Positions 2,550 through 35,232 of a stretch of DNA of 38,404 bases are shown piece by piece. Below the pieces are notes generated by a model. The model searched no databases. It was not told where the DNA came from and saw only the letters and a list, made by a program, of their open reading frames with translations. Both the position numbers and the translations under genes were made by a program. Numbering within the stretch: the stretch's first letter is position 1; each line of letters opens with the position of its first letter. Location: NCBI GenBank assembly GCA_051294375.1, contig JBJCIZ010000026.1, positions 54,966-93,369 on the forward strand, written 5' to 3'. This stretch comes from Paraspadella gotoi. Taxonomy: Eukaryota > Animalia > Chaetognatha.

Positions 2550-3172
2550 NNNNNNNNNNNNNNNNNNNNNNNNNGTGATGGGTGAAATTTCATATATTTT
2601 CTTCTCCCCAAAGACGAACAAAGAAAGAAAATTGCATAATTTTGGAGGCAGAGACAAAAAGAGTAGAAGAGATGAGAGGAGGAGAGAGGGAGAGGAGAGG
2701 GAGAGAGCATGAATTTAAATAATGAAGGATAATAAACTGGAAAAAATGTATAAGAAAAGATAGAAAAGAAAGATGGAGATTGTAAGAAGATAATAAACGA
2801 GATGAGAGATTCTTTATCAAAAAGCTTGTACAGAAGAATGGAGGCCTTATTGTATAATAAAGCCTGTCCAAAGTCGGATAGCTTATTTATTTAATTGAAT
2901 TGATAATTATTGTACTTGTTGTTACCGATTTGATGGAGAGGAAGGACATAAAGTGGCTTGAGGCTTGAGGTCACAAATAACAGAAAGTTTTAAAGTACAT
3001 TGTACAATATTGTAAATTCTTTAGACAGGATAAGAAAAAGAGAAGGAAAAAGAGAGGGGAAAGAAAAGAAAAAAGATAGGGATAAGCTTTAAGGGCGAAA
3101 ATGCGTGATGGCTCGTATGTCAGTACGTGCGCTGAAATTAAAATAGTCGAGAGATGGAAAAGCGTGGAAACA

Positions 3173-3204
<32 letters not shown>

Positions 3205-3209
3205 GAGAG

Positions 3210-3251
<42 letters not shown>

Positions 3252-3688
3252 AGAGAGAGGATAAGAGATGAGGGCCCAAGTAGTTATGATGAAACGGAGA
3301 AAAATGAAAAAAGATGTTAAAGGGGAAAAGAGACGACGGAGAAATAAATGAAAAAATCGGATAAAAAAAATATATGAAAATGGATTGGGAAAAAGATGGA
3401 TACGATAAACATTTGTTTTATCTTTAGCGCCTGCGCTAGGAGAAATGCGCGTTAGTTAATCTCTCTATCTCTCTCTCTCTCTCCTCCTTCTCTCTCTCTC
3501 TCTCTCTCTCTTCTCTCCTCTCTCTTCTCTCTCTCTCTCTTCTTTCTCTGAAAAGGAGTTTGGTTAATAATTAAATTTCAAAGAGCGGACAATATTTGGG
3601 CAGAATTCAAAAAATCTGCACTATGGAAATAGGCGGTGTCTTGGTGTCCTATTCACCACAGATAAATTTAAAAGCTGTTGCTTTCGCA

Positions 3689-3758
3689 GCGCCTCGGTGG
3701 CTCAGTGGACTAATGCCACCATCCCAATGTGCGTCCCTGGTCTCCGGAGCCCTGAGGT
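3689..3758 (+). promoter_or_regulatory. tRNA-derived (Gly-CCC-like) Pol III internal promoter in LTR1
   Basis: A box TGGCTCAGTGG at 3698-3708. TCCCAA anticodon-like loop. The B box is indel-damaged (GGTCTCCGGAGCCC). GCCTC/GAGGT can form an acceptor-like pairing. Confidence 0.7.
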
Positions 3759-3762
3759 TTTG

Positions 3763-3844
3763 TCATGTAGAAAGTGGGGTGAGACCGGGTAAACCGCCTT
3801 AGGCATGGGCCTACTGCCATGATCCAAGCTCTGGACTACAATGA
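3763..3844 (+). ncRNA. Putative P5-type twister ribozyme (LTR1 copy, noisy)
   Basis: P5 TGTAG/CTACA; TAA..CCGCC; P3 TAGGC-ATGG-GCCTA; P4 with loop TCC(A)AAGC closed by TCTGG. Predicted cut T3790/A3791. Confidence 0.6.
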
Positions 3845-3914
3845 ACATGCTGTCATCGCTGTCGCCACGAGGTGACACGCTGCGGGTGTGGCGCCTGTAA
3901 ACCAGCCTCTTCAA

Positions 3915-3950
3915 TGGTGAGGCCCGAGCGTGATCCGAACACGCAAAACC
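3915..3950 (+). promoter_or_regulatory. Primer-binding site complementary to tRNA-Trp 3' end (extended)
   Basis: TGGTGAGGCCCGAGCGTGATCCGAACACGCAAAACC aligns by eye to the reverse complement of the eukaryotic tRNA-Trp 3' end (TGGTGACCCCGACGTGATTTGAACACGCAACC, recalled from memory). Confidence 0.8.
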
Positions 3951-4100
3951 CGCGCATTGATAATACTCATTCTGCCCTTGATAAGGGTTTTTGAGCTACA
4001 CCAGCTGCCAAACTCCAAAGCAAGGCCACCAGAATTGGAAGAGAGCGTTTCAGCGGAGAGACATGCGCCTTCATCCCCCTGCTTCGGTACTCTCATATGC

Positions 4101-4118
4101 GAAGAGTCCTGGGGGCGG
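4101..4118 (+). promoter_or_regulatory. Polypurine tract-like sequence
   Basis: GAAGAGTCCTGGGGGCGG lies immediately upstream of LTR2. A CTGGGGG-type tract is typical of Gypsy PPTs. Confidence 0.65.
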
Positions 4119-4174
4119 CTGGTTCTGGTGGTCCTATCACCACAGATTAAATTAAAAGCTGGTGTGCTTTCGCA

Positions 4175-4243
4175 GCGCCTCGGTGGCTCAGTGGACTAAT
4201 GCACCATCCCAATGTGGCGTCCCTGGTTCGAGCCCTTGAGGTT
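4175..4243 (+). promoter_or_regulatory. tRNA-derived (Gly-CCC-like) Pol III internal promoter in LTR2
   Basis: A box TGGCTCAGTGG at 4184-4194 and canonical B box GGTTCGAGCCC at 4225-4235, with tRNA-like spacing. Not a complete cloverleaf. Confidence 0.8.
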
Positions 4244-4244
4244 G

Positions 4245-4328
4245 TCATGTAGAAAGTGGGATGGACCGGGTAACCGCCTGTAGGGCATGGGCCTTACTAG
4301 CCGAAGATCAAAGCTCTGGACTACATGA
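4245..4328 (+). ncRNA. Putative P5-type twister ribozyme (LTR2 copy)
   Basis: P5 TCATGTAG/CTACATGA (8 bp); GTGG-GA-TGG; ACCGGG-TAA-CC-GCC; P3 GTAGGGC/GCCTTAC; the L4 AAGC is followed by TCTGG. Predicted cut T4271/A4272. Confidence 0.65.
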
Positions 4329-5220
4329 ACATTGCCTGTTCTCGCTGTTCGCCCGAACGGTGACACCGCTGCGGGTGTATGGCGCCCTTGTAAAACCAGC
4401 CTCTTCAGGTGTACCAATTACCGCCATTTTGCAACGATTTTGCAGAAAGAATAGAAATCGGTGAATCAATGCACGCAGCGAGATTTTTTTTCCTTGCAAA
4501 AACTAACGAAAATGTTTTTCACTTTCAGATTTTAGTTCTTTGTCTCGATAGGATATGACCCTAAGGAGAGAGAGAAGAGAGACGAGTAAGGAGATGAGAG
4601 AGAGGAGAGATGAGAGAAGAGTTGCGAAGTTAGAGAGACCGAACCTCATTTGGTTTCCGTAACCTCGATGGAAACTCAAGTCAATGTCAGATGAGAGATG
4701 AGAGATGCTTATCCCTATCTTTTTTCTTTTCTTTCCCCTCTCTTTTCCTTCTCTTTTTTCTTATCCTGTCTAAGAATTACAATATTGTACAATGTACTTT
4801 AAACTTTCTGTTATTTGTGACCTCAAGCCTCAAGCCACTTTATGTCCTTCCTCTCCATCAAATCGGTACAACAAGTACAATAATTATCAATTCAATTAAT
4901 AAATAAGCTATCCGACTTTGGACAGGCTTTATTATACTAAGGCCTCCATTCTTCTTACAAGCTTTTTGATAAAGAATCTCTCATTCTCGTTTATTATCTT
5001 CTTACAATCTACATCTTTCTTTTCTATCTTTTCTTATACATTTTTCCCAGTTTATCCTTCATTATTTAAATTCATGCTCTCTCTCTCTCTCTCTCTCCTT
5101 CTCTCTTCACTCTTTTGTCTCTCGCCTCCAAAAATGCATTTTTCTTTCGTCTTTGGGGAGAAAATATATGAAAATTCACTCAAAATTACTTAGCATATGC
5201 CTGAAAAGAAAGAGAGAGAC

Positions 5221-6989: not shown

Positions 6990-8687
6990 ACGCAACTACG
7001 ACGACGACAAAACGACGATGACGACGACGACGACGAACAGAGAGAACGACGACAATCGTCGCGTTAATGATTAACTCGTTCCGGGTTTCGTTTTTCGTTC
7101 CGTGCCGCAACCGTAACGTCGTCGTCTCTCGTCGTCGTCCGTCGTCGCAGTTACTTAAAAATAGCTCCGTATTTCCTGTCCCGTCGTAATTAATTTGGCG
7201 TATGTTGTTTTTTTGGTCTCTTTGTTTATTATATATAATTCTTTTGTTTTGAGTAATCCCATTTATCATATTTTCAAAAATAAAAAAAAGCTCGAAAAAT
7301 AGAGAGAAAAAAAGAAAGAAGATAAAAAGAAAGACAACGATGTCAAGAGACAGAAAGAACGACAGACAGGACAGAGCAAACATTAACTTCAATTCGGGCT
7401 GTGGGAACTCTCACTTCTTCCCATTTCCAAAAAGCTTCCTTCAATCTTCCGGGAAAAAAATCAAATGTATCCTTTTTTTTTCATAAAAGTTTAAAGCGTC
7501 ATAAAATTTTGAGATTCTCGTTTTTAATGTCGATTCTTTTTCAGTTTTGAAAGTTTAAAAGCAAAAAGGGATTTCGCGTTTTTGGGACATTTCGAATCTG
7601 GTTGAGGGAGTTATCTGGAAAATGTTTCTTTTTTTTTTCTTTTTTTCTTCTTTTCTTTAATTTCTTTTTTGCTTTCTTCTCTCTCTTTCTTTTTTTTGTT
7701 TTTTTTCTTTCTTCTTTCTTTTCTTTCTTCTTTCTTTCTTTCTCTCTTCTTCTCTCTATTCTTTTCTTTCGTTCTTTTCACTTTCTTCTTTCTCTTTTTT
7801 CCTCTTTCTCAAACCAGAAAATGAAAAACATAAAAAACACAAACAAAAAAAGCTCATTTACAACAAAACTTTTTTTTTCGTTTTCCTTAAATATTATTTT
7901 CTGTAACCTTACCCCCGGAAAATAATTCTTCCGCCAAATTATCCCGGGAACGGATCGTTCCCTTCAGTTCGAGTTGATGAATTTTACCACCAAAGAATCT
8001 TCAAGCTTACTCACCTAAAATATCACCTCATCCTGGATCAGTATCTCTGGATGATATCAAATAGCACTTTAAGTAGCGCCAAAAATTTGAACTAAACATT
8101 TGAATAAAGTAACACGCAAGAGAAGTATCATTTAAAGGAAAAACTCATGGTATAATCTTTTTTTAAAATTCTTTCATTAAATTGTAACCACCAATTTCGA
8201 ATGTTTGATTATTTAAACGTATCCCAATTTTTAATTTTTCCAGATAAAATCAAAGTGTTAGTGTTATAATTAAGATTAAGGGATTTAGGTTAGGTTTTGT
8301 AGTTAGGAATTACATTAAATGATTAGAGGTAGGGATTATGGTTAGAGACTAAGAGTTAGTTATTAAGGGTTCCCTGTGGTTAAAGATTATGTTATGATTT
8401 TTTGATTTCGTGTGGGGATAAGGTTATACGATTTCTGTATGGATTTTGTTAGATATTCCGGTTATGACTAAGTTCAGGCGATTAGGGGCGGAACAAAAAT
8501 GGGGCTCTTTTTGGAAAAGAGAGCTCCAAAGCTAAAAACTACCCCACCACGTGCGAAAATATCAACCTAAGGAATTTGTGATTTTATTTTTTTGGGAAGA
8601 GAGAAAGAATAAATGAATGACTCGGCGAATCTGAATCAGACACGTGGGAGGTGAGAGAAGAGAGAGAGAGAGAGAGAGAAGGAGGAG

Positions 8688-8730
<43 letters not shown>

Positions 8731-9127
8731 TAGGTGCTTACTCTGTAAAACTGATGAAGCTCACTATGAATAGAGTGAGAGAGCGTGAGAAAGTAGAGAC
8801 AAGAGAGAGGAAGGGAAAACTATTGAAAAATAAACTTTCTCTGCCATTTTAAGGATGAATAGCCTGTTATTTCAAATGTCAAAGTTGAGGGTGAGAAGAG
8901 AGAGAGTAGAGAGAGAGAGAGAGGAGAGAGGAAGAGAGAAGAGAAGAGAGGAGAGAGAGGAGAGAGAGGGGCAGAGAGAGAGTATGTGAGAGAGAGAGAA
9001 TGAAAAGTAGAAAGTGAGAAGAGAGGAGAGAAAGAATGAAAGTCAGAAATGAAAACGAGAGAGTATGAAAGAGAGAAAAGACGAATAGCAGTACAGAGAA
9101 GAGACGAGGAGAGAGAGAGCGAGGAGA

Positions 9128-9165
<38 letters not shown>

Positions 9166-12100
9166 ATAACCTCACGCGATCCGACCGCGTTTTGGACGAC
9201 CCAAAGTTCTCGAGTCACGTGATTTCGCATTATCGCGTGAAAAGCGCCGACGGAATCACGAGTGAAAGAAGGGGGACGGGGGCGCAGGGGTCGTGAGGCT
9301 TGAATGTGAATTCGACAGTGGAAAGTTTCGGAGGCCGAGATGTAACGCCGGTATGAAAGGACGGCCGTGAGTGTGGATGGATGAATCCTGTGACATGGCC
9401 ACGTTTGAGGTACGCAGGAGGTAAATGCAAGTACGTTGGCAATGTGAACGACATATATTATCATCTATCTATTCATCATTGTTCTTTATCTCTCTTCTCC
9501 GTCATCATCATCTCCTCATCATAATCATGCTATAATCATCTTTAATTCAATTATCATCGTCGTCGTCATAACACAAATACTTAACTTCTATCCATCACAT
9601 CATAGTGCTAAACCTCTGGTTCGACGTAGTCCGCTAATCATCATATCATTCAATCAATAAAAAACAACGACGACAACAAACAACAACACAACAACAACCA
9701 TCGTTAATGGCAAAAATCGCGTTTCGAGTTCGGGATTAAGATCGATGGAATCAGTTTTGGTTCCGCGGTGGGGGTGATATTTTGGGCAGGCAGCGGTGAG
9801 TGAGCTTTCGGGGTCAGACCGCGCCATTTGAGACGGCGAAGCCTAATAAAAAAATTTTTCCCTTTTTAGACCAAGATGCTGTGGGTCAAAGCGAATATCG
9901 GTGGCTGAAACGAATAAAAAAATGGAGGGAATTCTGGAGTCAGACGCGAGATCTTTGGCCCAGCTATTTTACCAAGCGCCCGTTATCTGATTAAATTCGC
10001 GATAGACATGAGGTTGGAGATTCCCCTCCAGTTAGGTTATTAGGTTAGAGTTACGGATTTAGGGTAAGGGCAATCTTGGTATAAAATTAAGGTTATTAAT
10101 GAAATGTTTATTATATAGAAATAAGTTTAAATATTCTGTAAAATAATTTATCTCACAGATTTAAAACAAAAATGGGCCCCGTTCCGCAAATAGATCCAAA
10201 CTTTTATTTTTAGAGGAGAAATCGGGACAGAGTTTCTCCGAAAGTGGCCGTGGCCCTTATGGTGTCGACTGGGGTCCGAGGGGCCCGCTCGACCGCGAGC
10301 GTCACTAGCGACCCCACCCTTGGTTCAAACAGTTGGAAAGACATGGAGGGGAACGGGGGGAGGTGGGAGATAGGGCTGGGGGATTCCTGTGAAACAATTG
10401 ACCACTCCAAATTGTGTGTATGTCCGTTTTACCGTTTATAAATATTGCATTTTTTCTTTAAAAATAATATTCTGTATGACTGAGCCCAGAAGACATGTCT
10501 GGGCTACATTAGTCCAAAGAAATCCGTGTCAAACCAAAACCCTGTTTTCTCTCTAAAAATAAATATTGTATATCATTTTATTTCTAATTTTGTTAGAATT
10601 TACCGTCCGCGGGCATTATTATAATATTGGGCTAGTGCTGACTCATGTAAAATGTGTGAAATTTTTAAATCATTTGTTGTCAGATTTTCTGTTTTTTTTT
10701 TTTTTTAGATTTTGATGTGTCATGAGTTTTTTGCATTTAGAAAAATTATAAAACTAATATTCTTAAACTTGAAATTAAATTTTTTTGACATAATTAGCCA
10801 GACATGTTTCGGCTCAGTCATACAGAATATTTATTTTAAAGAAAAAAATGCAATATTTATAAACGTAACGAATACACAATTTGAGTGTCATATTGTTCAC
10901 GAATCCCCCAGCCTCTCCTCCCACCTCCCCCCTTCCCCTCCATTCTTTTCCAACTGTTTAAAGTGGATCGCTAGTGACGCTCGCGTCGACGGCCCCTCGA
11001 CCCCATCGACCCATAGGGCCACGCCCACTTCGAGAAACTCTGTCCCGATTTCTCCTCTAAAAATAAAATTTGGATCTATTTGCGGAAACCGCCCCATTTT
11101 TGTTTAAAATCTGTGAGATAAATTTTTTACCAGAATATTTAACCTTAATTTTATATTAATAAACATTTCTTAATAACCTTAATTTTATACCAAATTGCCC
11201 TTACCCTAATCCGTAACTCTAACCTAATACCTAACTGGAATCTCCAACCTCATGTCTATTGCGAATTTAATCAGAAACGGGGCGCTTTGGTAAAATATGG
11301 CCAAAGATCTCGCGTCTGACTCCAGATTCCCTCCATTTTTTTTTTATTCGTTCAGCCACCGAATTCGCTTTTGACCCAAACTCTTTGGGTCTAAAAAGGG
11401 AAAATTTTTTTTTAGGCTTCGCCGTCTCAAATGCGCGTCTGACCCCCGAAACTCACCCACCGCTGCCACCAAATATCACCCACCACCGGAACCCAAAACG
11501 ATGCCATCGATCTTAATCCGACTCGAAACGCGATTTGCCATTACGATGGTTGTTGTTGTTGTTGTTGTTGTCGTCGTTGTTTTTATTGATGATGATGATG
11601 ATGATTACGACTACGTCAACGAGGTTGACTATGATGATGTCAAAGATATTTGTGATGATGACGACGACGATGATAATGAATTAAAGATGATTATGATGAT
11701 TATGATGATGAGGATGATGATGACGAAGAAGAAGATAAAGACAATGATGATAGATAATGATAATATAGTCGTTCACATTGCAACGTACTGCATTACCTCC
11801 TCGTCTCACTGGCATTCACAGGCATTCACCATCCACCTCACGGCCGTCCTTTCATACCGGCGTTCACATCTCGGCCTCCGAAACCATTTCACTGTCGAAT
11901 TCACATCAAGCCTCACGCACCCCTGCCCCCCGTCCCCCTTTTTCACTCGTGATTCCGTCGGCGCTTTTCACCGATAATGCGAAATCACGTGACCTCGAGA
12001 ACTTTGGGTCTCCAAAACGCGGCACGTCGCGTGAGGGTTATCGACTCTCTCCTCTCTCCTCCTCATCTCTCTCTCTCTCTCTCTCTCTCCTCTCTCTCTG

Positions 12101-12471
12101 CTCTCTCTCTCTCTGTCTCTATCTCTCTTTTCTCTCTTTCATACTCTCTCTTTTCATTTCTGACTTTCATTCTTTCTCTCTCTCTCTCACTTTCTCTTTC
12201 ATTCTCTCTCTCTCACATACTCTCTCTCTCCTCCCCTCTCTCTCTCTCTCTCCTCTCTTCTCTCTCTCTCTCTCTCTTCTCTCTCCTCTCTCTCTACTCT
12301 CTCTCTCTCTCCCCTCAACTTTGACATTTGAAAAACAGGCTATTCATCCTAAAATGGCAAGAAAGTTTATTTTTCAAAAGTTTTTCCCTTCCCTCTCTCT
12401 GTCTCTACTTCTCACGCTCTCTCACTCTATTCCATAGTGAGCTTCATCGTTTTACAGAGTAAGCACCCTAA

Positions 12472-12547
<76 letters not shown>

Positions 12548-13426
12548 ACCTCCCCGTGTCTGAATTCAGATTCGCCGAGTCATCATTATTCCTTTTCTCT
12601 CTTCCCAAAAAAATAAAATCACCAAATTCCGTTAGGTGATATTTTCGGACGTGGTGGGTAGTTTTTAGCTTTGGGCTCTCTTTTCCAAAAGAGCCCCATT
12701 TTTGTTCCCCCTAATCCCTGAACTTAGTCATAACCGGAATATCTAACAAAAATCCATTACAAAATCTATAACCTTATCCCCACAACGAAATCAAAAAATC
12801 ATAACATAATCTTTAACCCAAACCCTTATAACTAAACTCTAGTCTCTAACCATAATCCCTACCTCTAATCATTAATGTAATTCCTAACCTACAAACCTAA
12901 CCTAATCCCTTATCTAATTTATAACACTAACCTTGATTTTATCTGAAAATTAAAAATTGATACGTTAAATAATCAAACATTCGAAATTGTTTTACCAATT
13001 TAATGAAAGAATTTTTAAAAAAAGATTATACCATGAGTTTTTCCTTAAATGATACTTTCTTCGGTTTACTTTTTCAAATTGTTAGTTCAAATTTTTGGCC
13101 TACTATAAAGTGCTATTTGATATCATCCAGAGATACTGATCCAGTGATGAGGTGAATATTTTAGGTGAGTAAAGCTGAAGATTCTTTGGTGTAAAGTTCA
13201 TCAACTCGAACTGAAGGGAACGATCCGTTCCGGATAATTTGGCGGGAAATTATTTTCCGGGGGTAAGGTTACAGAAAATAATATTTGAAGGAAAAACGAA
13301 AAAAAAAGTTTTGTTGTAATGAGTTTTTTGTTTGTGTTTTTTATGTTTTTCATTTTGGTTTGAGAAAGAGAAAAAGAGAAAGAGAAAGTGAAAAAGAACG
13401 AAAGAAAGAATAGAAGAAGAAAAGAG

Positions 13427-13461
<35 letters not shown>

Positions 13462-14005
13462 AAAAAAGCAAAAAAGAAAGAGAGAAAGAAAGCAAAAAAA
13501 GAAATTAAGAAAAGAAGAAAAAAAGAAAAAAAAAAGAAACATTTTCCAGCTAACTCCCTCAACCAGATTCGAATTCCCAAAACTGCGAATCCCTTTTTTG
13601 CTTTTTAAAACTTCAACTGAAAAGAATCGACATAAAAAAACGAGAATCTCAAAATTTTATGACGCTTTAAACTTTTATGAAAAAAAAAAAGGGTACATTT
13701 TGGATTTTTTTCCGGAAGATTGAAGAAGCTTTGGAAATATGGAGAAGTGAGAGTTCCCGCCCGAATTGGAAGTTAATGTTTGTCTGTCTGTCTGTCGTTC
13801 TTTCTGTCTCTCTGACATCTGTGTCTTTCTTTTTATCTTTCTTTCTTTTTTTCTCTCTATTTTTCGAGTTTTTTTTATTTTGAAAATAATGATAAATGGA
13901 TTACATCAAAACAAAAGAATTATATATTAATAAACAAAAGACAAAAAAACAACATACGCCAAAATTAATTACGACCGAAGGAATACGGAGCTATTTTTAG
14001 TAACT

Positions 14006-19332: not shown

Positions 19333-20031
19333 TTATTTAACTCCCATCTTAACTATTTTAATTATTTAATTACTTAACACTTTAATATTGTGAATCGGGG
19401 CAATTTTAGAAAATATGGCCCTTTCTTATCTTTCTCATCCTTTTCCTCTTCCTCCTCCTCCTCCTCCTCTTCCTCCGTCCCTTTCATAAAGCCTATGGAC
19501 CTCTCCCACGGGGTCACCTCCTCCTCCTCACTTCCCCCGTTTATTCATTCTCCTCCTCCTCCTCCTCCTCCTCCTCCTCTTCCTCCACCTCATCCTCCGC
19601 ATTAATTCAATTTTAAAAAAACATATTCTTATAATTTGTACATTACATTTTGATTTTAAGTAAGATTGATAATTGCATGTATGTATGTATAAATATCTTT
19701 AATCATCTTGTAGTCGGACCCGTTCCATGGCTGCTAGAGGGGGTTATAGAAGTTACGGACAGTCATCTTCAGCCCACGTAGCGCCTTATCCACAATCTCA
19801 ATTAGCATGTTCTTTCCTTCTTTCTTTCTTTCCTTCTTTCCTTCTTTCCTTATTTCTTTCTTTTTTTCTTTCCCTAATAATACGAGTTCCTGTCAAAACG
19901 AAAACGAATCTGACCCTGTCCTCATTTCTGGTCATTGGTTCAGAGGTCAAAAGTCACGCTGGGTCACGTTCGGGTCACGGGTCACCACCGATTCATAAGG
20001 TCATGAACAAGCTGCTTCGTGAGCTTTGTCG

Positions 20032-24520: not shown

Positions 24521-25512
24521 CTCTCGCTCTCTGTTGGGAGATTCGAAGGGAAAATTATAATTTAGAGATAAAATGAATTGATTTTGTTATGTTTATGTTA
24601 TGAAACTGGAACAACCTTCATTCATTTAATAAAGAATTTAGTGGTTAGGACCTTCACAAGAAAAAAAATGCAAGATAAAATTAATATACTTTAACAATAT
24701 AATGAAATATGTTTAAGAGACTTTCACTACTTTTTCACCTTCCCTTTTTAAACAGTACTTTCTTCAAAACTTCACCAACTAACATACGAACAGTCCGACG
24801 ATCAAATAAAAACCCGTTTTAGTTTAATTCGGAAATGCGTCGTCGGGATTCGGATGTAATCCATTTTCATTCTCCACTAATCACGCGAATCAAATTTCGT
24901 TTCCACGAAGATTGAAAAAGAAAGAGAAAAAAAAAGAGAAAAAAAAAGAAAAATGTTGATGTTGCGTAAATCATCAAAACGCAATTAATCTTCGGGACTT
25001 TGAAAGGACACGCGTCTCAAAGATAAAAGAAAAAGAAAACAAGAACCGTCAAGAGCCGTGACTGTCTTTCGTGAACGCATTTTAAGATAATCACAATCAC
25101 TGACTGCACAAGTGTGACTGTATAAACGAGAAGCATCACTTTCTGTTAAGTATCAAATCAAGCATAATAACCAAATGATACCCAAAAAATGCCGTATTTA
25201 CTTTCTGATCACCTGTTCTGTATGATCACGCGTCTACTGTCGTATGAAACATGTACAAGATGCCTTGAATGATACCATACATACTTAAACTGACTCAGCC
25301 TTTTTTTAAATTATGTCGCGTAAATTTTTTGTTCGTGTGATTATCTGACTGCACCTGTAGAAAATGTTTATTATTTTCTACGCCTCGAGGGTCGCGCGTT
25401 CGATTCGTCGGAAGAATGACGTAAATGTTGAATAAATGACGAATAAATCGTGAATAAATCGTGCATAAGTTTATTATTAAAAATAATAAGTCAATGGCAA
25501 AATCAATGTCGT

Positions 25513-25746
25513 TATGGTGGACTAAAATCCACCAACCGTTCATCAGCGGCCATTGGTGCCAGAGGCAAGTCATTGGCCTCCCAACCCAAAGGTCCGGGGT
25601 TCTAGCCCGGTGGTCGTCTGGCAGTTAAGAGGGACGGGGCGCTTAACCCGCCTGTAACATGGTGTTACAGCCTGATCCGAAGCTCAGGGACTGCTTATAT
25701 TGAACGGTTCTGTCATGAACACATATCAATAATTACTGTCTCTTCA
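25513..25746 (+). mobile_element. Solo LTR of a second tRNA/twister TRIM family
   Basis: TCGT on both sides (25509-25512, 25747-25750). Starts with hairpin TGGTGGA-CTAAAA-TCCACCA and ends CTCTTCA like family 1. tRNA-like segment at 25546-25617 with a CTCCCAA loop and B box GGTTCTAGCCC (25598-25608). No PBS follows. Confidence 0.75.
25620..25695 (+). ncRNA. Putative P5-type twister ribozyme (family 2, cleanest copy)
   Basis: P5 GCAGTT/GACTGC; GAGG-GA-CGG; TAA-CCC-GC; P3 CTGTAACA/TGTTACAG; P4 CCTGA/TCAGG with loop TCCGAAGC. T1 pseudoknot CCG:CGG and T2 GC:GC. Predicted cut T25644/A25645. Confidence 0.75.
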
Positions 25747-26445
25747 TCGTATTATAAATTGGTGTAGAAAATCCTTGGATTCCGTAAAAACTACGGTGCC
25801 ATAAAGTCGATCTTTTCCAGAGAAACGATTATGATCGAAAAGACTGGTCAAAAGAGGCCAACGAAATGACCAGGGAAAATGACCGGACCGGAGGTCACAA
25901 AATCTTTCAGCGCCAGTATGAGACATAGTATGCACAAAAAAAGGTCTTAAGGTATCAAATATATTAATTCGAAACGTGAGTGAGGCAGATAGACGGACCG
26001 ACCGACCGAAAAATAACTTATCTCCCCTCCAGTCCCAAGGGTTAGGGAATATGGATAGGAAAAAGGATAGGAAAAAGGATAGGAATAAGGAAGGATAGCG
26101 AAAACAATCGCTAACCAAGCTACTTTGGCGAGCGTAAGCTGCTTGCGACGAAATCTCCCCCTACCATCGATCGGGATGCATCGGAAAAGCCAAGAGAGGC
26201 AAACCATTTGGTCTATCCATTTCCTGCGATGATATATTATATATATATATATAATATATATGTATATATAATATATATATAATATATATATATTATATAT
26301 ATATATATATAAATAATGGCTAATGTTTGACTAGCTGAATTGTTGCGGTCCGCGTGAAGAAAAAAAGGCGTAAGTCAAGATAACGAAAAAAAGAAATTTG
26401 TTTGATCTATTTCTTTTTGTTTTCCTGGATTAAATAATTGAATGG

Positions 26446-26484
<39 letters not shown>

Positions 26485-26489
26485 GTAGA

Positions 26490-27060
26490 GAGAATATCCC
26501 GGAATTCTCAACGACTCCTGTCCTAGTAGAGCACTTTTTTTTGTGTTGACCACCAGGCCGTTTTCGTCGAGGGCCCTAAACACTTTTTCTAAGTCTTGAA
26601 GGTGCTCCTCGGAGAGGAAGATGCCACCAATATGTCATCTAAAATAGACAAAAGTGTGAGGGATATCTACCAGTATCTGGTCCATCAGCCGCTGAAAATC
26701 CTGACCGGCATTTTTACAGCCGAAAGGACAGCGGGGGGAACACATACAGAACCGAAGGTTGTTATAGGCCGTTTTTTTTTCACATTCCTCCGGGTTTACA
26801 GGGATTATGGGTGAATATCCGCCTTAGCAAGTCGATCTTCGAAAAAGATCGTCTTGCCTTCCAACTGGGAGTGAAATCGTTGAGAAGTTTGACCGGGTAA
26901 CGATCGCGATGGTTTGATAGCGTTTAGGCGGCGTAGTCCCGCAACATCGCCATCCTCCGTCGGGTTTGGAGACGAACGTGTAGCGGGGAGGAACCACATC
27001 AGCTTTCCTCACCGCTTGGCAATGCCCAAGGAAACCATCTTTTCCAATTCGGTTGGGCGA
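26490..27060 (-). pseudogene. Gypsy reverse transcriptase domain (frameshifted)
   Basis: Stitched across frameshifts: ELEKMVSLGIAKR, SPLHxVSKPDGGWRCCG-DYRRLNAI, DRYPV, SQLEGKTIFSKIDL, PFGxKNAGQDFQRLMDQIL, FVYLDDILVASS (~26634-26649), EEHLQDLEKVFRALDENGLVVN. Confidence 0.93.
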
Positions 27061-27299
27061 CCGCTAACTTCTCTGGGTCGAGCCGCCGTGCTCGTGATGG
27101 CAGGGTCGACCTTCTGTAGGTATTGAATAGTCACGCATGGCGTGGCTCCTTCAACTCGAATGTTGAGTGGAGTAGAGAGGGGAAAGATTCTAACAGTTTT
27201 AAGTAAGCGCTCTCCCTTTCTATCGACGAAGTGAACGTGGGCGGCGGTTTCCTTGATGTCGACGCCGCCTATCGTCGAGTAGTACTGGAATCTATAAGG

Positions 27300-27570
27300 G
27301 GCCGTCTCGATGGTTTGGAGCCAGAAAATTGTCGGCGCAGGAAGTCCGCGCGAGGATGAAATGTTTACGTCAACCACGACGAAACGGATATCAAATTCTC
27401 TGTTTTCCCAATTTCACACTTTCGATCACATAGTTCCATAGCACTCTATTCGACCGACCGTTGGCGGCCTGGAGCTTCATTTGAAGGGTCCGGGCCGCGG
27501 CGTCGTTGCTCTGGCGAAGGTGGAACGATAGAAAGTATGCCTCTCCGTCTACCTAACCATTTAGTTCTGT
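27300..27570 (-). pseudogene. Retropepsin-like aspartic protease (frameshifted)
   Basis: Stitched motifs WLVDG-A..SIVPP, MKLQAANGRSIECYG, FVVVDV..IL-ADFLR are characteristic of Gypsy proteases. Confidence 0.85.
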
Positions 27571-27699
27571 CCACCTGGCGCTCGAATGAAGATCCCAAAA
27601 AAAAATCCGCTTTTGAAAACCGCCCGTGGGGTGGGGGGGATTTTTAAATTTGAAATCCAGAGGGGACGGCGTTCACACACTGCGACGCCCACCTTTTTG

Positions 27700-28800
27700 G
27701 CCATTCCCTCTTTTCCCTTTTCACTTTGTTGAATCTGGCACAACCAGCTCAACAACTTCCACGCCTCGTCGCGAATTTGACGTGTTTAAAGCCCGCACAA
27801 GCGTCGGTTACTTAGATTTCATTTTTTCCTTGAGCGCTGGATTCGGGCGCTTTTGTTGTTTTGAGGCCTTTCTGACGTTTGTCGACCGGCGTTGACGGCG
27901 TTCTCAACCGTCGGAATCTGATTCGTCGTCGTCTTGTTGCCTGTGACGACGTTGCTAATTAGGGAATCGAAGTCTGTCTTAGCTTAAGCGGTGCCGTCGT
28001 TCCGTAGTAGCGGTCCTGCCATAATTTGGGAGAGTTGAATACGCCGATAAGTCCGTCTTGCTTTACCATCCAAGCTGTCCGGGCGGACGTCTCTCGCAGG
28101 CTCTCTGAGGATTTTTTCTTTTCCTCATGTCGTCAGAGTCAACGTTTTTGTTTCTCTTCGACAGTCTCGCCCAATATTTTCGGGTTTATTTCCGTCGACG
28201 GGTCGAGATGATCGAGAAGCGTCGCTGCTTGTTGGCGCCGGGTCATTCCATATTCTCGTCGGAGATAACTGATGACATCCGGCCCATGTCTCCTCGTTTG
28301 CTTCGCCAAAGAGGACTGGTTAAATTGTCGGATCGACGTTCACGCTGATTTGGCCTCCCAGTATGCGCAATTTAGGCTTAGGCGCCGTGATGCTTGCCCG
28401 TGTGTAAGCGGATTCGATCCGCTGATCCATCACTTAGATCTTATGGCTGAATCAAAAGTCGGGCGAGATCCGGCTTTCGATTTGGAGACGCGGTTCGAGG
28501 CGGGCGAGTTGCAAGCAGCGAGGGCTAGCACGATGTTCTTCGTTTTCAATCCGCGTAAGTCTCTGTTTCGACTCGCCGCCGGTCGCCATGTGCGGCCGTC
28601 CTCAAAGTTTTGTTCGTTCGGAGTTTTGATATATAACGTCGGGGGGCGTTCGGTGAAGATTGGCAGAGGTGGAAAATTCGAGAGCGAGCTCCTCTGCCAA
28701 TCGAACTGGAAACTGGGAGCGTCACTGCTTCATTGCTGGGATCGTCGACGTTTCGTTGTGCTGAGCGAAGGCGGAGATCTAAGGTCGACCCGCTCATATT
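27700..28800 (-). pseudogene. gag-like ORF remnant with CHCC zinc knuckle
   Basis: Stitched segments RIESAYTRASIT.., FGEANEETW..VISYLRREYGMTRRQQAATLLD, and C-FK-H-VKFxDEAWK-C-xxG-C at ~27738-27800 (C-x2-H-x9-C-x3-C, the CsRn1-type motif). Confidence 0.7.
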
Positions 28801-28968
28801 GTTTCTGGGCTTTCCGTCGTGTCGCCGTGGGGAGTGTAAAAAAGGAAAAAGCAAGCGTGAGCGGATTGGGCTAATCAAGCCTTAACTTTTGATTCTCTAC
28901 CCAAATCTTACCCTGGAAAAGGGTAATTAATCCGTTGAACTTCCCCGCGAAAGTTGGCCTTGTTCGTT

Positions 28969-28982
28969 CGCCGGTTTCACCA
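28969..28982 (-). promoter_or_regulatory. Candidate PBS of the Gypsy element (degenerate tRNA-Trp type)
   Basis: The minus strand reads ..CACACA|TGGTGAAACCGGCG, versus the Trp PBS TGGTGACCCCGACG. It lies upstream of gag and follows a CA end. Confidence 0.5.
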
Positions 28983-30052
28983 TGTGTGGCCAATGTGGCC
29001 TGAGAATACCTACAAACGTTAACGAGGTCACATACAACAGCCGGGTTCACATGACTAAGATGTTGACATGAAAGAATATAATTTTCCAGAGTGGCGACAT
29101 TGCGGGAAAATGGGATCCGAGATTCGAATTGTATTTAAATATCAATTGATTGGTTTAATTTTGATTGAGCAGAATAATTCATGAGTTTTTGCACAGAGTT
29201 AATGTATTGGCTACATTATTTATCGAGTAATAAAAACGAAGTTAATATCATGAGTGTTCATGATTAAGCAGGAAAAACGCAGACTGATCAATCTCAGTCA
29301 AACAAATCAATAAAGAACAGTCAGTTGAAATTTGAATAACAAAGGTTTTGGAATAGATGACCATCTTCAGTGGAACAGAGAAACAAAAGAATTGTCAGGT
29401 TTCAGTTTAGATTCAGTGGCCACACGTAATATGCATTTGAATGATACGACCGTATTATACAAGTTTGAATAACTCTCCTCTACTCTGACTCTCTCTCTCT
29501 CTCTATCAACCCAATGACTCACCACTTCTAAGCGCCCCATATGTTGACACATAATAAGGAATTAAAGACAGCCACGACGACGACGACGACGACGACGGAA
29601 CGACTTGAATGATGAGATGATGACGCGAGAAAAAACGTTGCCAATCATAAAGATATTGATGGCAACGACGACGATGACGACGACGACGATGATTGCTGAC
29701 GATGAAAAAGGTCAAATTATCAGTGGTCATTTCTCCAAGGTTGAATCAAGTCACCGTTTACCTCATCCAGCGTCAAAGCACTTGTATGTTCTCGTAATGG
29801 AGAATTGGAAAATTACGTCATGAATCCCTTTGTCCTAGTTGATTCGTTTTGTCTTCCTTTAACTATTAATTCATACGCGCCTGAAGATCATTCCTGATTG
29901 TTATTATTTATCGAATTATTTAATTATTTAATATTATTAAAGAAAATATAGAAAAATTAAAAAATCGTATGCTAAATACCTTTAAAAAATTTCCATTCCA
30001 ATTTTTTTGTCAAGTTTTCCCTTTTTTCCGCTTTTCCCAATTTTTAAATGGC

Positions 30053-35087: not shown

Positions 35088-35232
35088 GGAAAACAGTTTT
35101 AATGTGGCAACGAATTTTATTGACAAGTAAGTCGGACATGTTCGACTCTTATAGAGTTGAAGTCTTCACAAGAGTCGAAACATTCCGACTTACTTGTCAA
35201 TAAAATTCGTTGCCACAATTAAACTGTTTTCC
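35088..35232. repeat. Near-perfect ~62-bp-arm hairpin, possibly an inverted Penelope-like terminal repeat
   Basis: 35088-35150 is the reverse complement of 35170-35232. Contains GTCGAAAC..AATAAA as in Penelope pLTRs. Confidence 0.55.

What the first reader, a model, noticed from the sequence alone, without database searches (positions are those of the whole stretch)
25620..25695. Covariation between two diverged families supports a real twister fold
Family 1 (consensus by eye of the two noisy LTRs) versus family 2: P5 TGTAG/CTACA versus GCAGT/ACTGC; P3 GTAGGC/GCCTAC versus TGTAAC/GTTACA; P4 CCAGA/TCTGG versus CCTGA/TCAGG; pseudoknot T1 CCA:TGG versus CCG:CGG. The unpaired core (GA, TAA, GC, AAGC) is retained, apart from GG in place of GA in LTR1. 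The layout matches the rice twister as I recall it (UAA..GC..CCGG-UCCC-AAGC-CCGG..GAGGG), circularly permuted to open at P5. Stems that change while pairing is kept imply selection on RNA structure.
Basis: partly seen in the sequence, partly recalled or inferred. Interest (0 to 1): 0.88.

Follow-up and report, generated by a model that had tools for sequence, protein, structure and literature searches.

The report
Twister ribozyme inside tRNA-headed retrotransposon LTRs
A short, repeated jumping-DNA element carries in each end repeat, right behind a tRNA-like head, a sequence with the full layout of a twister self-cutting RNA, so it likely cuts its own transcript to unit length as plant retrozymes do with a different ribozyme, a combination I did not find in print.

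Summary
The fold is real; the covariation argument is weaker than claimed. 25620-25695 holds every element of a type-P5 twister in order. A structural descriptor finds only this site in the window, 0 in 205 Mb of shuffles, and 7 of 9 Rfam-positive phage P5 twisters. Rfam itself misses it. Two departures from rice twister are pair swaps known to keep activity (RA 0.83-0.86). Of the family-1 stem arms, P5, P4-3' and P1 are literal in both noisy copies; P3-5', P4-5' and L4 are in neither. Two families cannot give statistics. The context is the real find: the motif sits 2 nt behind a tRNA-like head in a 234-bp solo LTR with a 4-bp target duplication; family 1 is LTR-PBS-PPT-LTR. That is a Helenus-type TRIM built like an LTR retrozyme, with twister instead of hammerhead. 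P1 is shrunk to one weak pair plus a palindromic tetraloop that is swapped between families (GCGC/CCGG), suggesting a 'double twister'. Cleavage, transcription and circles are untested.

The parts
25513..25746 (+). Family-2 solo LTR (TA...CA, 234 bp), repeated element
   Evidence: Contigs of runs X1, X4, X9 break off at 25512/13 and 25746/47; 16,603 contigs of X1 laid on 25400-25900; PBS-like letters follow 25747 in X1, X9, X10
25509..25512 (.). Left 4-bp target-site duplication
   Evidence: Sequence; contigs that skip the LTR rejoin at 25747 with one copy of the 4-mer (tables 5, 5c)
25747..25750 (.). Right 4-bp target-site duplication
   Evidence: Sequence
25546..25617 (+). tRNA-like head (7-bp acceptor stem, anticodon and T arms; B-box-like 25598-25608; poor A box), likely pol III promoter
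   Evidence: Fold; Rfam tRNA only 14.4 bits, E=5; ARAGORN 0 genes; common variants at 25614 and 25617 keep acceptor pairing
25620..25695 (+). Type-P5 twister-like ribozyme: P5 25620-25/25690-95; P2 25629-32/25647-49; GA 25633-34; T1 25635-37/25677-79; T2 25650-51/25682-83; P3 25652-70; P4 25671-75/25684-88; L4 25676-83
   Evidence: element order as in PMC8501958 Table 1 and the Rfam P5 consensus
25638..25643 (+). Minimal P1: one G.U pair capped by a palindromic tetraloop
   Evidence: Sequence; self-duplex -8.3 versus hairpin +5.6 kcal/mol
25644..25645 (+). Predicted cleavage site U/A
   Evidence: Position matches rice U6/A7 (numbering); not tested
3639..3913 (+). Family-1 5' LTR (noisy); tRNA-like head 3691-3758, twister-like 3766-3840, predicted cut 3790/3791
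3915..3932 (+). Primer-binding site (tRNA-Trp-like; label recalled)
   Evidence: Sequence; same opening letters follow family-2 LTRs in contigs
3914..4122 (+). Family-1 internal region, about 208 bp, with purine-rich tract 4111-4119
   Evidence: no ORF of 100 aa or more here
4123..4407 (+). Family-1 3' LTR (noisy); tRNA-like head 4177-4242 with A box 4184 and B box 4225, twister-like 4248-4325, predicted cut 4271/4272
   Evidence: 86.7% to LTR1, almost all differences indels
3635..3638 (.). Candidate left 4-bp TSD of family 1 (matches 4408-4411)
   Evidence: Sequence; LTR start uncertain by 1-2 nt

Best explanation
This is a type-P5 twister fold built into the LTRs of a non-coding, tRNA-headed LTR retroelement, and it likely cuts the element's RNA at U25644/A25645 in both LTRs, releasing a unit-length RNA that would be circularised and copied by a Gypsy helper, as proposed for plant LTR retrozymes. 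Shown: the fold's elements, their order and rarity; the LTR, TSD and PBS anatomy; the head directly upstream. Inferred: pol III transcription from the head (about 0.6), cleavage (about 0.75), cutting in both LTRs so that no R repeat is left (481-nt unit in family 1), ligation of the 5'-OH and cyclic-phosphate ends by a host ligase, and reverse transcription from the tRNA primer by an autonomous Ty3/Gypsy element.
For: Descriptor: 1 hit in window, 0 in 204.8 Mb of shuffles; it recovers 7 of 9 Rfam-positive phage P5 twisters, 8 of 9 with a longer linker, and 0 of the 7 other loci. All four positions intolerant of any change in rice twister (G13, G30, A46, G48) are kept. Published relative activities for the swaps seen here: G23A/C32U 0.85, C27G/G47C 0.86 (family 2), C27A/G47U 0.83 (family-1 reading), against 0.13 for C27G alone. 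3-nt P2 strands occur in Rfam-positive L014 and L016. P1 is reported dispensable. Between 25647 and 25670, variants above 3% lie only in the P3 loop (X1: 12%, 54%, 4%); stem variants are 2.3% or less in all three runs. Same motif in the same slot in two diverged families. No T4 run in the family-2 LTR. Retrozyme anatomy and model: PMC4918200, PMC7761336. Two published Helenus LTRs carry, by eye, a hammerhead in the same slot.
Against: No Rfam twister match at E up to 10, while phage P5 twisters score 40-56 bits. P1 is 6 nt against 20-30 nt there. The third P2 pair needs a bulge or an A.C mismatch, and changes in P2 length were suggested to disturb the active site; family-1 P2 is unresolved. 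The MFE pairs the T1/P1 region with the cut-site strand instead. Swaps were tested singly in rice, not together. A T1-breaking variant at 25679 is at 13%, 1.5% and 4% in X1, X4, X9 with no partner change listed (26 rows hidden; rice analogue RA 0.36), and the essential G25636 varies at 2.7%, 8.5% and 0.3%. The predicted family-1 circle is not unusually paired (z -0.5, 65% paired, noisy letters). Family 1 has T4 and T5 runs at 3758 and 3988 that could stop pol III (homopolymers unreliable). The family-2 head is a weak tRNA match.
Confidence: 0.55

Rival explanations
1. The twister is active but serves mainly as a 3'-end maker: RNA starts at the tRNA-like head in the 5' LTR, the 5' ribozyme is often left uncut, and the cut in the 3' LTR leaves a linear RNA with an R repeat of about 100 nt, copied by ordinary LTR strand transfer with no circle.
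For: No T4 terminator in the family-2 LTR, whereas many published Helenus LTRs have a T run just behind the tRNA part and the two hammerhead-bearing ones do not (by eye; fish families also lack it). Weak P1 and a competing MFE could slow cleavage. The predicted circle is not highly paired.
Against: Both LTRs hold the same complete motif, and nothing found would spare the 5' copy. In a plant retrozyme the primary transcript was fully cut (PMC9695139).
Confidence: 0.22
2. The motif descends from a twister but no longer cuts; it is kept as a structural signal for RNA dimerisation, packaging or stability.
For: Three departures next to the active site (P1, P2, L4 closing pair); Rfam miss; uncompensated T1 variant in up to 13% of depth; palindromic P1 could be a plain dimer signal.
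Against: Catalytic-core letters are kept in both families while stems change, and the changes chosen are ones that keep activity in rice.
Confidence: 0.18
3. Chance resemblance, or a product of assembly noise and by-eye consensus.
For: The window is error-rich; the descriptor was written after seeing the candidate; folding z-score is not significant.
Against: 0 hits in 204.8 Mb of shuffles; family-2 letters agree with thousands of independent contigs.
Confidence: 0.03

Closest known systems
Type-P5 twister ribozyme (Rfam RF02684)
   Same: Element order, GA, UAA, GC, U-NNN-AAGC, both pseudoknots, P4; 3-nt P2 strand as in L014 and L016
   Different: P1 is 6 nt, not an 8-10 bp hairpin; A-U closes L4; outer T1 pair G-C or A-U; a closed P5 helix; sits in a eukaryotic retroelement; below Rfam detection
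Schistosoma mansoni P1-type twisters and T-variants at the 5' end of Perere-3 (RTE non-LTR; PMC8501958)
   Same: GC-CUGUA start of P3, G+UAA(A) linker before P2, C-rich P2; suggests descent from a metazoan P1-type twister by permutation (inference)
   Different: Those are type P1, cut at the 5' end of an autonomous LINE; this is type P5 in the middle of an LTR
Plant LTR retrozymes (PMC4918200)
   Same: Non-coding; ribozyme in both LTRs; PBS, PPT, 4-bp TSD; solo LTRs; Gypsy helper
   Different: Twister instead of type III hammerhead; tRNA-like head; Trp-like (recalled) instead of Met PBS; probably animal; circles not shown
Helenus / TRIMp3 (Kojima 2024, PMC10886601)
   Same: Under 1 kb; tRNA-like A/B boxes in LTR; PBS; PPT; 4-bp TSD; some start TA
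   Different: No ribozyme is described for Helenus; a motif search of its 108,717-character supplement found no twister L4 in an LTR (1 hit, in an internal region; line breaks can hide hits)
Dimer-dependent type I hammerheads of amphibians (HHR_Amex1, PMC7229834)
   Same: One weak pair capped by a palindromic tetraloop in the helix next to the cut site
   Different: Hammerhead helix III in tandem non-LTR repeats, not twister P1 in LTRs

Membership tests
Twister ribozyme (type P5) | P2, P4, T1, T2 and conserved L1/L4 nucleotides in P5-permuted order | tested here: met
   G13, G30, A46, G48 equivalents kept
Twister ribozyme (type P5) | Match to Rfam RF02684 at gathering score | tested here: not met
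   No twister match at E up to 10; control loci matched 9 of 12
Twister ribozyme (type P5) | P1 stem of at least 2 bp | tested here: inconclusive
   6 nt only; hairpin +5.6 kcal/mol, self-duplex -8.3; P1 reported dispensable or giving inefficient cleavage when absent
Twister ribozyme (type P5) | 4-bp P2 | tested here: not met
   3-nt 5' strand, no insertion in contigs; natural 3-bp P2 exists
Twister ribozyme (type P5) | Significant covariation in a deep alignment | not testable with these tools
   Only two families; family 1 only from two noisy copies; no genome held; no relatives in metagenome or viral scans
Twister ribozyme (type P5) | Self-cleavage at U/A | not testable with these tools
   Needs a bench assay
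Helenus (TRIMp3) | Two LTRs, PBS, PPT, under about 1.3 kb, non-coding | tested here: met
   Family 1, 3639-4407; PBS-like letters behind family-2 LTRs
Helenus (TRIMp3) | tRNA-derived A and B boxes in the LTR | tested here: met
   Family 1 A box 3698/4184, B box 4225; weaker in family 2
Helenus (TRIMp3) | 4-bp TSD (animal type) | tested here: met
   Family 2, with empty-site contigs; candidate in family 1
Helenus (TRIMp3) | Pol III transcription | not testable with these tools
   Not validated for Helenus either
LTR retrozyme | Hammerhead (type III) in both LTRs | tested here: not met
   The ribozyme-like motif is a twister; no hammerhead core in these LTRs
LTR retrozyme | PBS, PPT, 4-bp TSD, non-coding centre | tested here: met
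LTR retrozyme | Unit-length circular RNA, highly self-paired | tested here: inconclusive
   Predicted 481-nt circle z -0.5 on noisy letters; no raw RNA reads examined

The most novel reading that the evidence does not exclude
An animal LTR retrozyme that runs on a 'double twister': P1 is reduced to a palindrome, so two copies (the two LTRs of one transcript, or two packaged RNAs) swap P1 strands and cut efficiently only as a dimer, timing cleavage to full-length RNA. With the hammerhead seen by eye in wasp Helenus-2, this would define pol III-driven LTR retrozymes with interchangeable ribozymes.
Probability: 0.3. Interest if true: 0.88.

Novelty: new variant of a known kind. Interest (0 to 1): 0.72.

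Why it matters
Twister ribozymes have few assigned roles; the one I found for retroelements is 5'-end trimming of non-LTR elements. LTR retrozymes are described with hammerheads and mainly in plants. A twister in the LTR of a tRNA-headed TRIM would join two separately described classes, show that the ribozyme slot is interchangeable, and give a short RNA for testing how pol III-driven LTR elements make their ends. It also shows a repeated twister variant that Rfam misses, so genome surveys may undercount them. A dimer-dependent twister would be a new mode for this class.

Tried and rejected
Rfam on window and two sub-regions: no twister. ARAGORN: 0 genes. No whole genome held. Pattern scans for relatives: 3 viral loci, no Rfam match, judged chance; 1 metagenome locus inside a protein-coding gene that reads like purE (label recalled), chance. 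Genome contigs not scanned. No RNA holder listed for the LTR; run X9 is only guessed to be RNA, so nothing is drawn on expression. No place where many molecules begin or end (contigs cannot show this). Folding z-scores uninformative: -0.87 motif, -0.74 LTR, -0.5 family-1 circle. No further copies in the window by blastn or profile. MAFFT misaligns the motif between families and in L014-L016, so no covariance model or pair count was made. A PBS-like match at 19987(-) lies in a short degenerate repeat, rejected. Penelope pseudo-LTR and plain SINE readings rejected because of PBS, PPT and 4-bp TSD. Earlier findings of the scan: none in 3 look-ups.

Full report
OBSERVATION. The window is eukaryotic, microsatellite-rich and error-prone; probably an invertebrate animal (inference from the 4-bp TSDs and Gypsy-type PBS; not determined). 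Read against the S. mansoni twister table and the rice numbering: G45/A46 = 25633/34, T1 = 25635-37 with 25677-79, U6/A7/A8 = 25644-46, G13/C14 = 25650/51, L4 = 25676-83, with P3, P4 and a closing P5. This is the type-P5 order.

CHANCE AND CONTROL. A descriptor (GA, T1 complementarity, NAA, 3-4 nt P2 with at least three pairs and an optional bulge, GC, P4 of 4 or more Watson-Crick pairs, T-NNN-AAGC) gave 1 hit in the window, 0 in 2,718 dinucleotide shuffles made in 500-nt blocks (204.8 Mb) and 0 of 80,429 shuffles of the LTR. It was written after I had seen the candidate. As a control I fetched 12 phage loci with a P5 pattern; 9 of 12 matched Rfam Twister-P5 at 40-56 bits. The descriptor found 7 of these 9 (8 with a longer linker) and none of 7 other loci, 6 Rfam-negative and one not scanned. 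Several control loci are near-identical and were found by a related pattern, so sensitivity is flattered. Rfam does not detect the window's motif, most likely because the model expects an 8-bp P1 and a 4-bp P2 (inference from the consensus).

COVARIATION CLAIM. Family 1 is two LTR copies that differ by 4 mismatches and 39 gap columns in 300. Of 10 motifs audited, 4 are exact in both copies, 3 in one, 3 in neither. P5 is solid but peripheral and register-dependent; P3 has one double change; P4 and T1 have one literal side each. These letters were not checked against independent reads. With two families no statistic is possible. Within family 2, contigs of three runs show variation above 3% between 25647 and 25670 only in the P3 loop (positions near the ends of the stretch were not listed). 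The wider call lists changes at 25614, 25617 and 25620 that keep pairing, but also 25679 (13%, 1.5%, 4%) with no listed partner and 25636 (2.7%, 8.5%, 0.3%), both at CpG; 26 rows were hidden.

COULD IT CUT? The four rice positions that tolerate no change are kept. The A-U pair closing L4 and both families' outer T1 pairs score RA 0.85, 0.86 and 0.83 in the rice double-mutant matrix; the uncompensated 25679 variant corresponds to 0.36. RA is a 2-h end point and hides rate losses. P2 has a 3-nt strand, as in Rfam-positive L014 and L016, but its third pair is a bulge or mismatch, and a review warns against P2 length changes. P1 is 6 nt; it is reported dispensable or inefficient when absent. I put cleavage at about 0.75.

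CONTEXT. A tRNA-like fold (25546-25617) ends 2 nt before P5; it is statistically weak, but family 1 has clear A and B boxes in the same slot. Contigs define a 234-bp unit, 25513-25746, with a 4-bp duplication, empty-site contigs, PBS-like letters behind it in three of four runs and purine-rich letters before it in one; 16,603 contigs of X1 were laid, with summed depth of 2-5 million inside against at most 116,000 in the flanks (depth is not a copy number). Family 1 is LTR-PBS-208 bp-PPT-LTR. This meets the published description of animal Helenus, whose paper names no ribozyme. By eye, two of its supplementary LTRs (Helenus-2 of two Synergus wasps) hold a complete type III hammerhead just behind the tRNA part; I did not run these through a tool.

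MECHANISM. Best reading: transcription from the head, cuts in both LTRs, a unit without an R repeat (481 nt in family 1), circularisation, then tRNA-primed copying by a Gypsy helper, as modelled for plant retrozymes. A Gypsy-like remnant with weak RT matches (E 0.0016 and 0.0041, below cut-off; 2 of 7 pieces) and a similar PBS lies at about 26400-29000 on the minus strand; it is a candidate helper type only. Against the circle: the predicted unit is not unusually paired and family 1 has T runs. The main rival is 3'-end formation with a linear, R-bearing RNA.

DOUBLE TWISTER. P1 reads GGCGCU in family 2 and ACCGGG in both family-1 copies: the flanking pair is swapped and the centre stays palindromic. 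16 of 256 4-mers are palindromes, and the shared CG may be inherited, so this is one swap, not proof. The amphibian hammerhead HHR_Amex1 has the same design and cuts better as a dimer. Probability 0.3.

NOVELTY. Type-P5 twisters, Helenus and LTR retrozymes are each known. Nine literature searches and three look-ups of this scan showed no twister in an LTR or TRIM, no ribozyme in Helenus and no dimeric-P1 twister. The library lacks most subscription papers; Roth 2014 and its alignments, Repbase and Dfam were not seen, so these motifs may already be listed there without context. A 2020 review mentions insects with type III hammerhead elements as in preparation. Supplements of bioRxiv preprints were not available.

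PAPERS SEEN. PMC10886601: main text parts 1-4 of 6, passages, supplement parts 1 and 5-9 of 11, one motif search. PMC5113685: whole text, supplement passages and part 6. PMC8501958: abstract, Introduction, section 17. PMC5408937: parts 1-2 of 7, passages. PMC4918200: passages, Discussion. Passages only: PMC6765202, PMC7761336, PMC9695139, PMC11721086, PMC5786205, PMC7229834, PMC10085705, 10.1101/2022.07.19.500677, 10.64898/2026.07.22.740005. Recalled, from no call: the tRNA-Trp label of the PBS, the purE label, T4 as pol III terminator, hammerhead core motifs.

VERDICT. Real twister fold (about 0.9), active (about 0.75), retrozyme-like route (0.55). New variant of a known kind; interest 0.72.

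Noticed in passing
PMC10886601 supplement DataS1, Helenus-2_SyJa-LTR and Helenus-2_SyUm-LTR: By eye, a complete type III hammerhead (both core motifs, three helices, complementary loops) directly behind the tRNA-like part; the paper's text does not mention it.
   Followed up: partly
window about 26400-29000, minus strand: Frameshifted Gypsy-like element: weak RT matches below cut-off and a PBS-like site at 28982 resembling the TRIM's PBS; candidate helper type.
   Followed up: partly
window 25545/25546: Recurrent breakpoint at the first base of the tRNA-like head: single X1 contigs skip from 25545 to 25641 or 25648 (near the predicted cut; one has 2-nt microhomology), and X4 and X9 contigs leave the LTR at 25545 into letters resembling an inverted copy of the LTR start. 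Weak, unexplained.
   Followed up: no
window 25414-25508 and 25751-25845: The solo LTR is inserted into another repeat; contigs join the two flanks without it.
   Followed up: partly
L005-L009, L012, L014-L016: Nine phage-contig loci with Rfam-positive type-P5 twisters; L014 and L016 have a 3-bp P2.
   Followed up: partly
window 35091-35229: Long near-perfect hairpin (scores 54 bits on a plant miRNA model, below gathering); probably a miniature inverted-repeat element.
   Followed up: no
window 10076-11193, 7591-13573, 2721-5066: Inverted repeat pairs of 82-135 nt, 84-94% complementary, possibly DNA-transposon ends or oppositely oriented repeat copies.
   Followed up: no
window 25516-25535: The family-2 LTR opens with a 6-bp hairpin whose arms are also present at the start of family-1 LTRs.
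   Followed up: no
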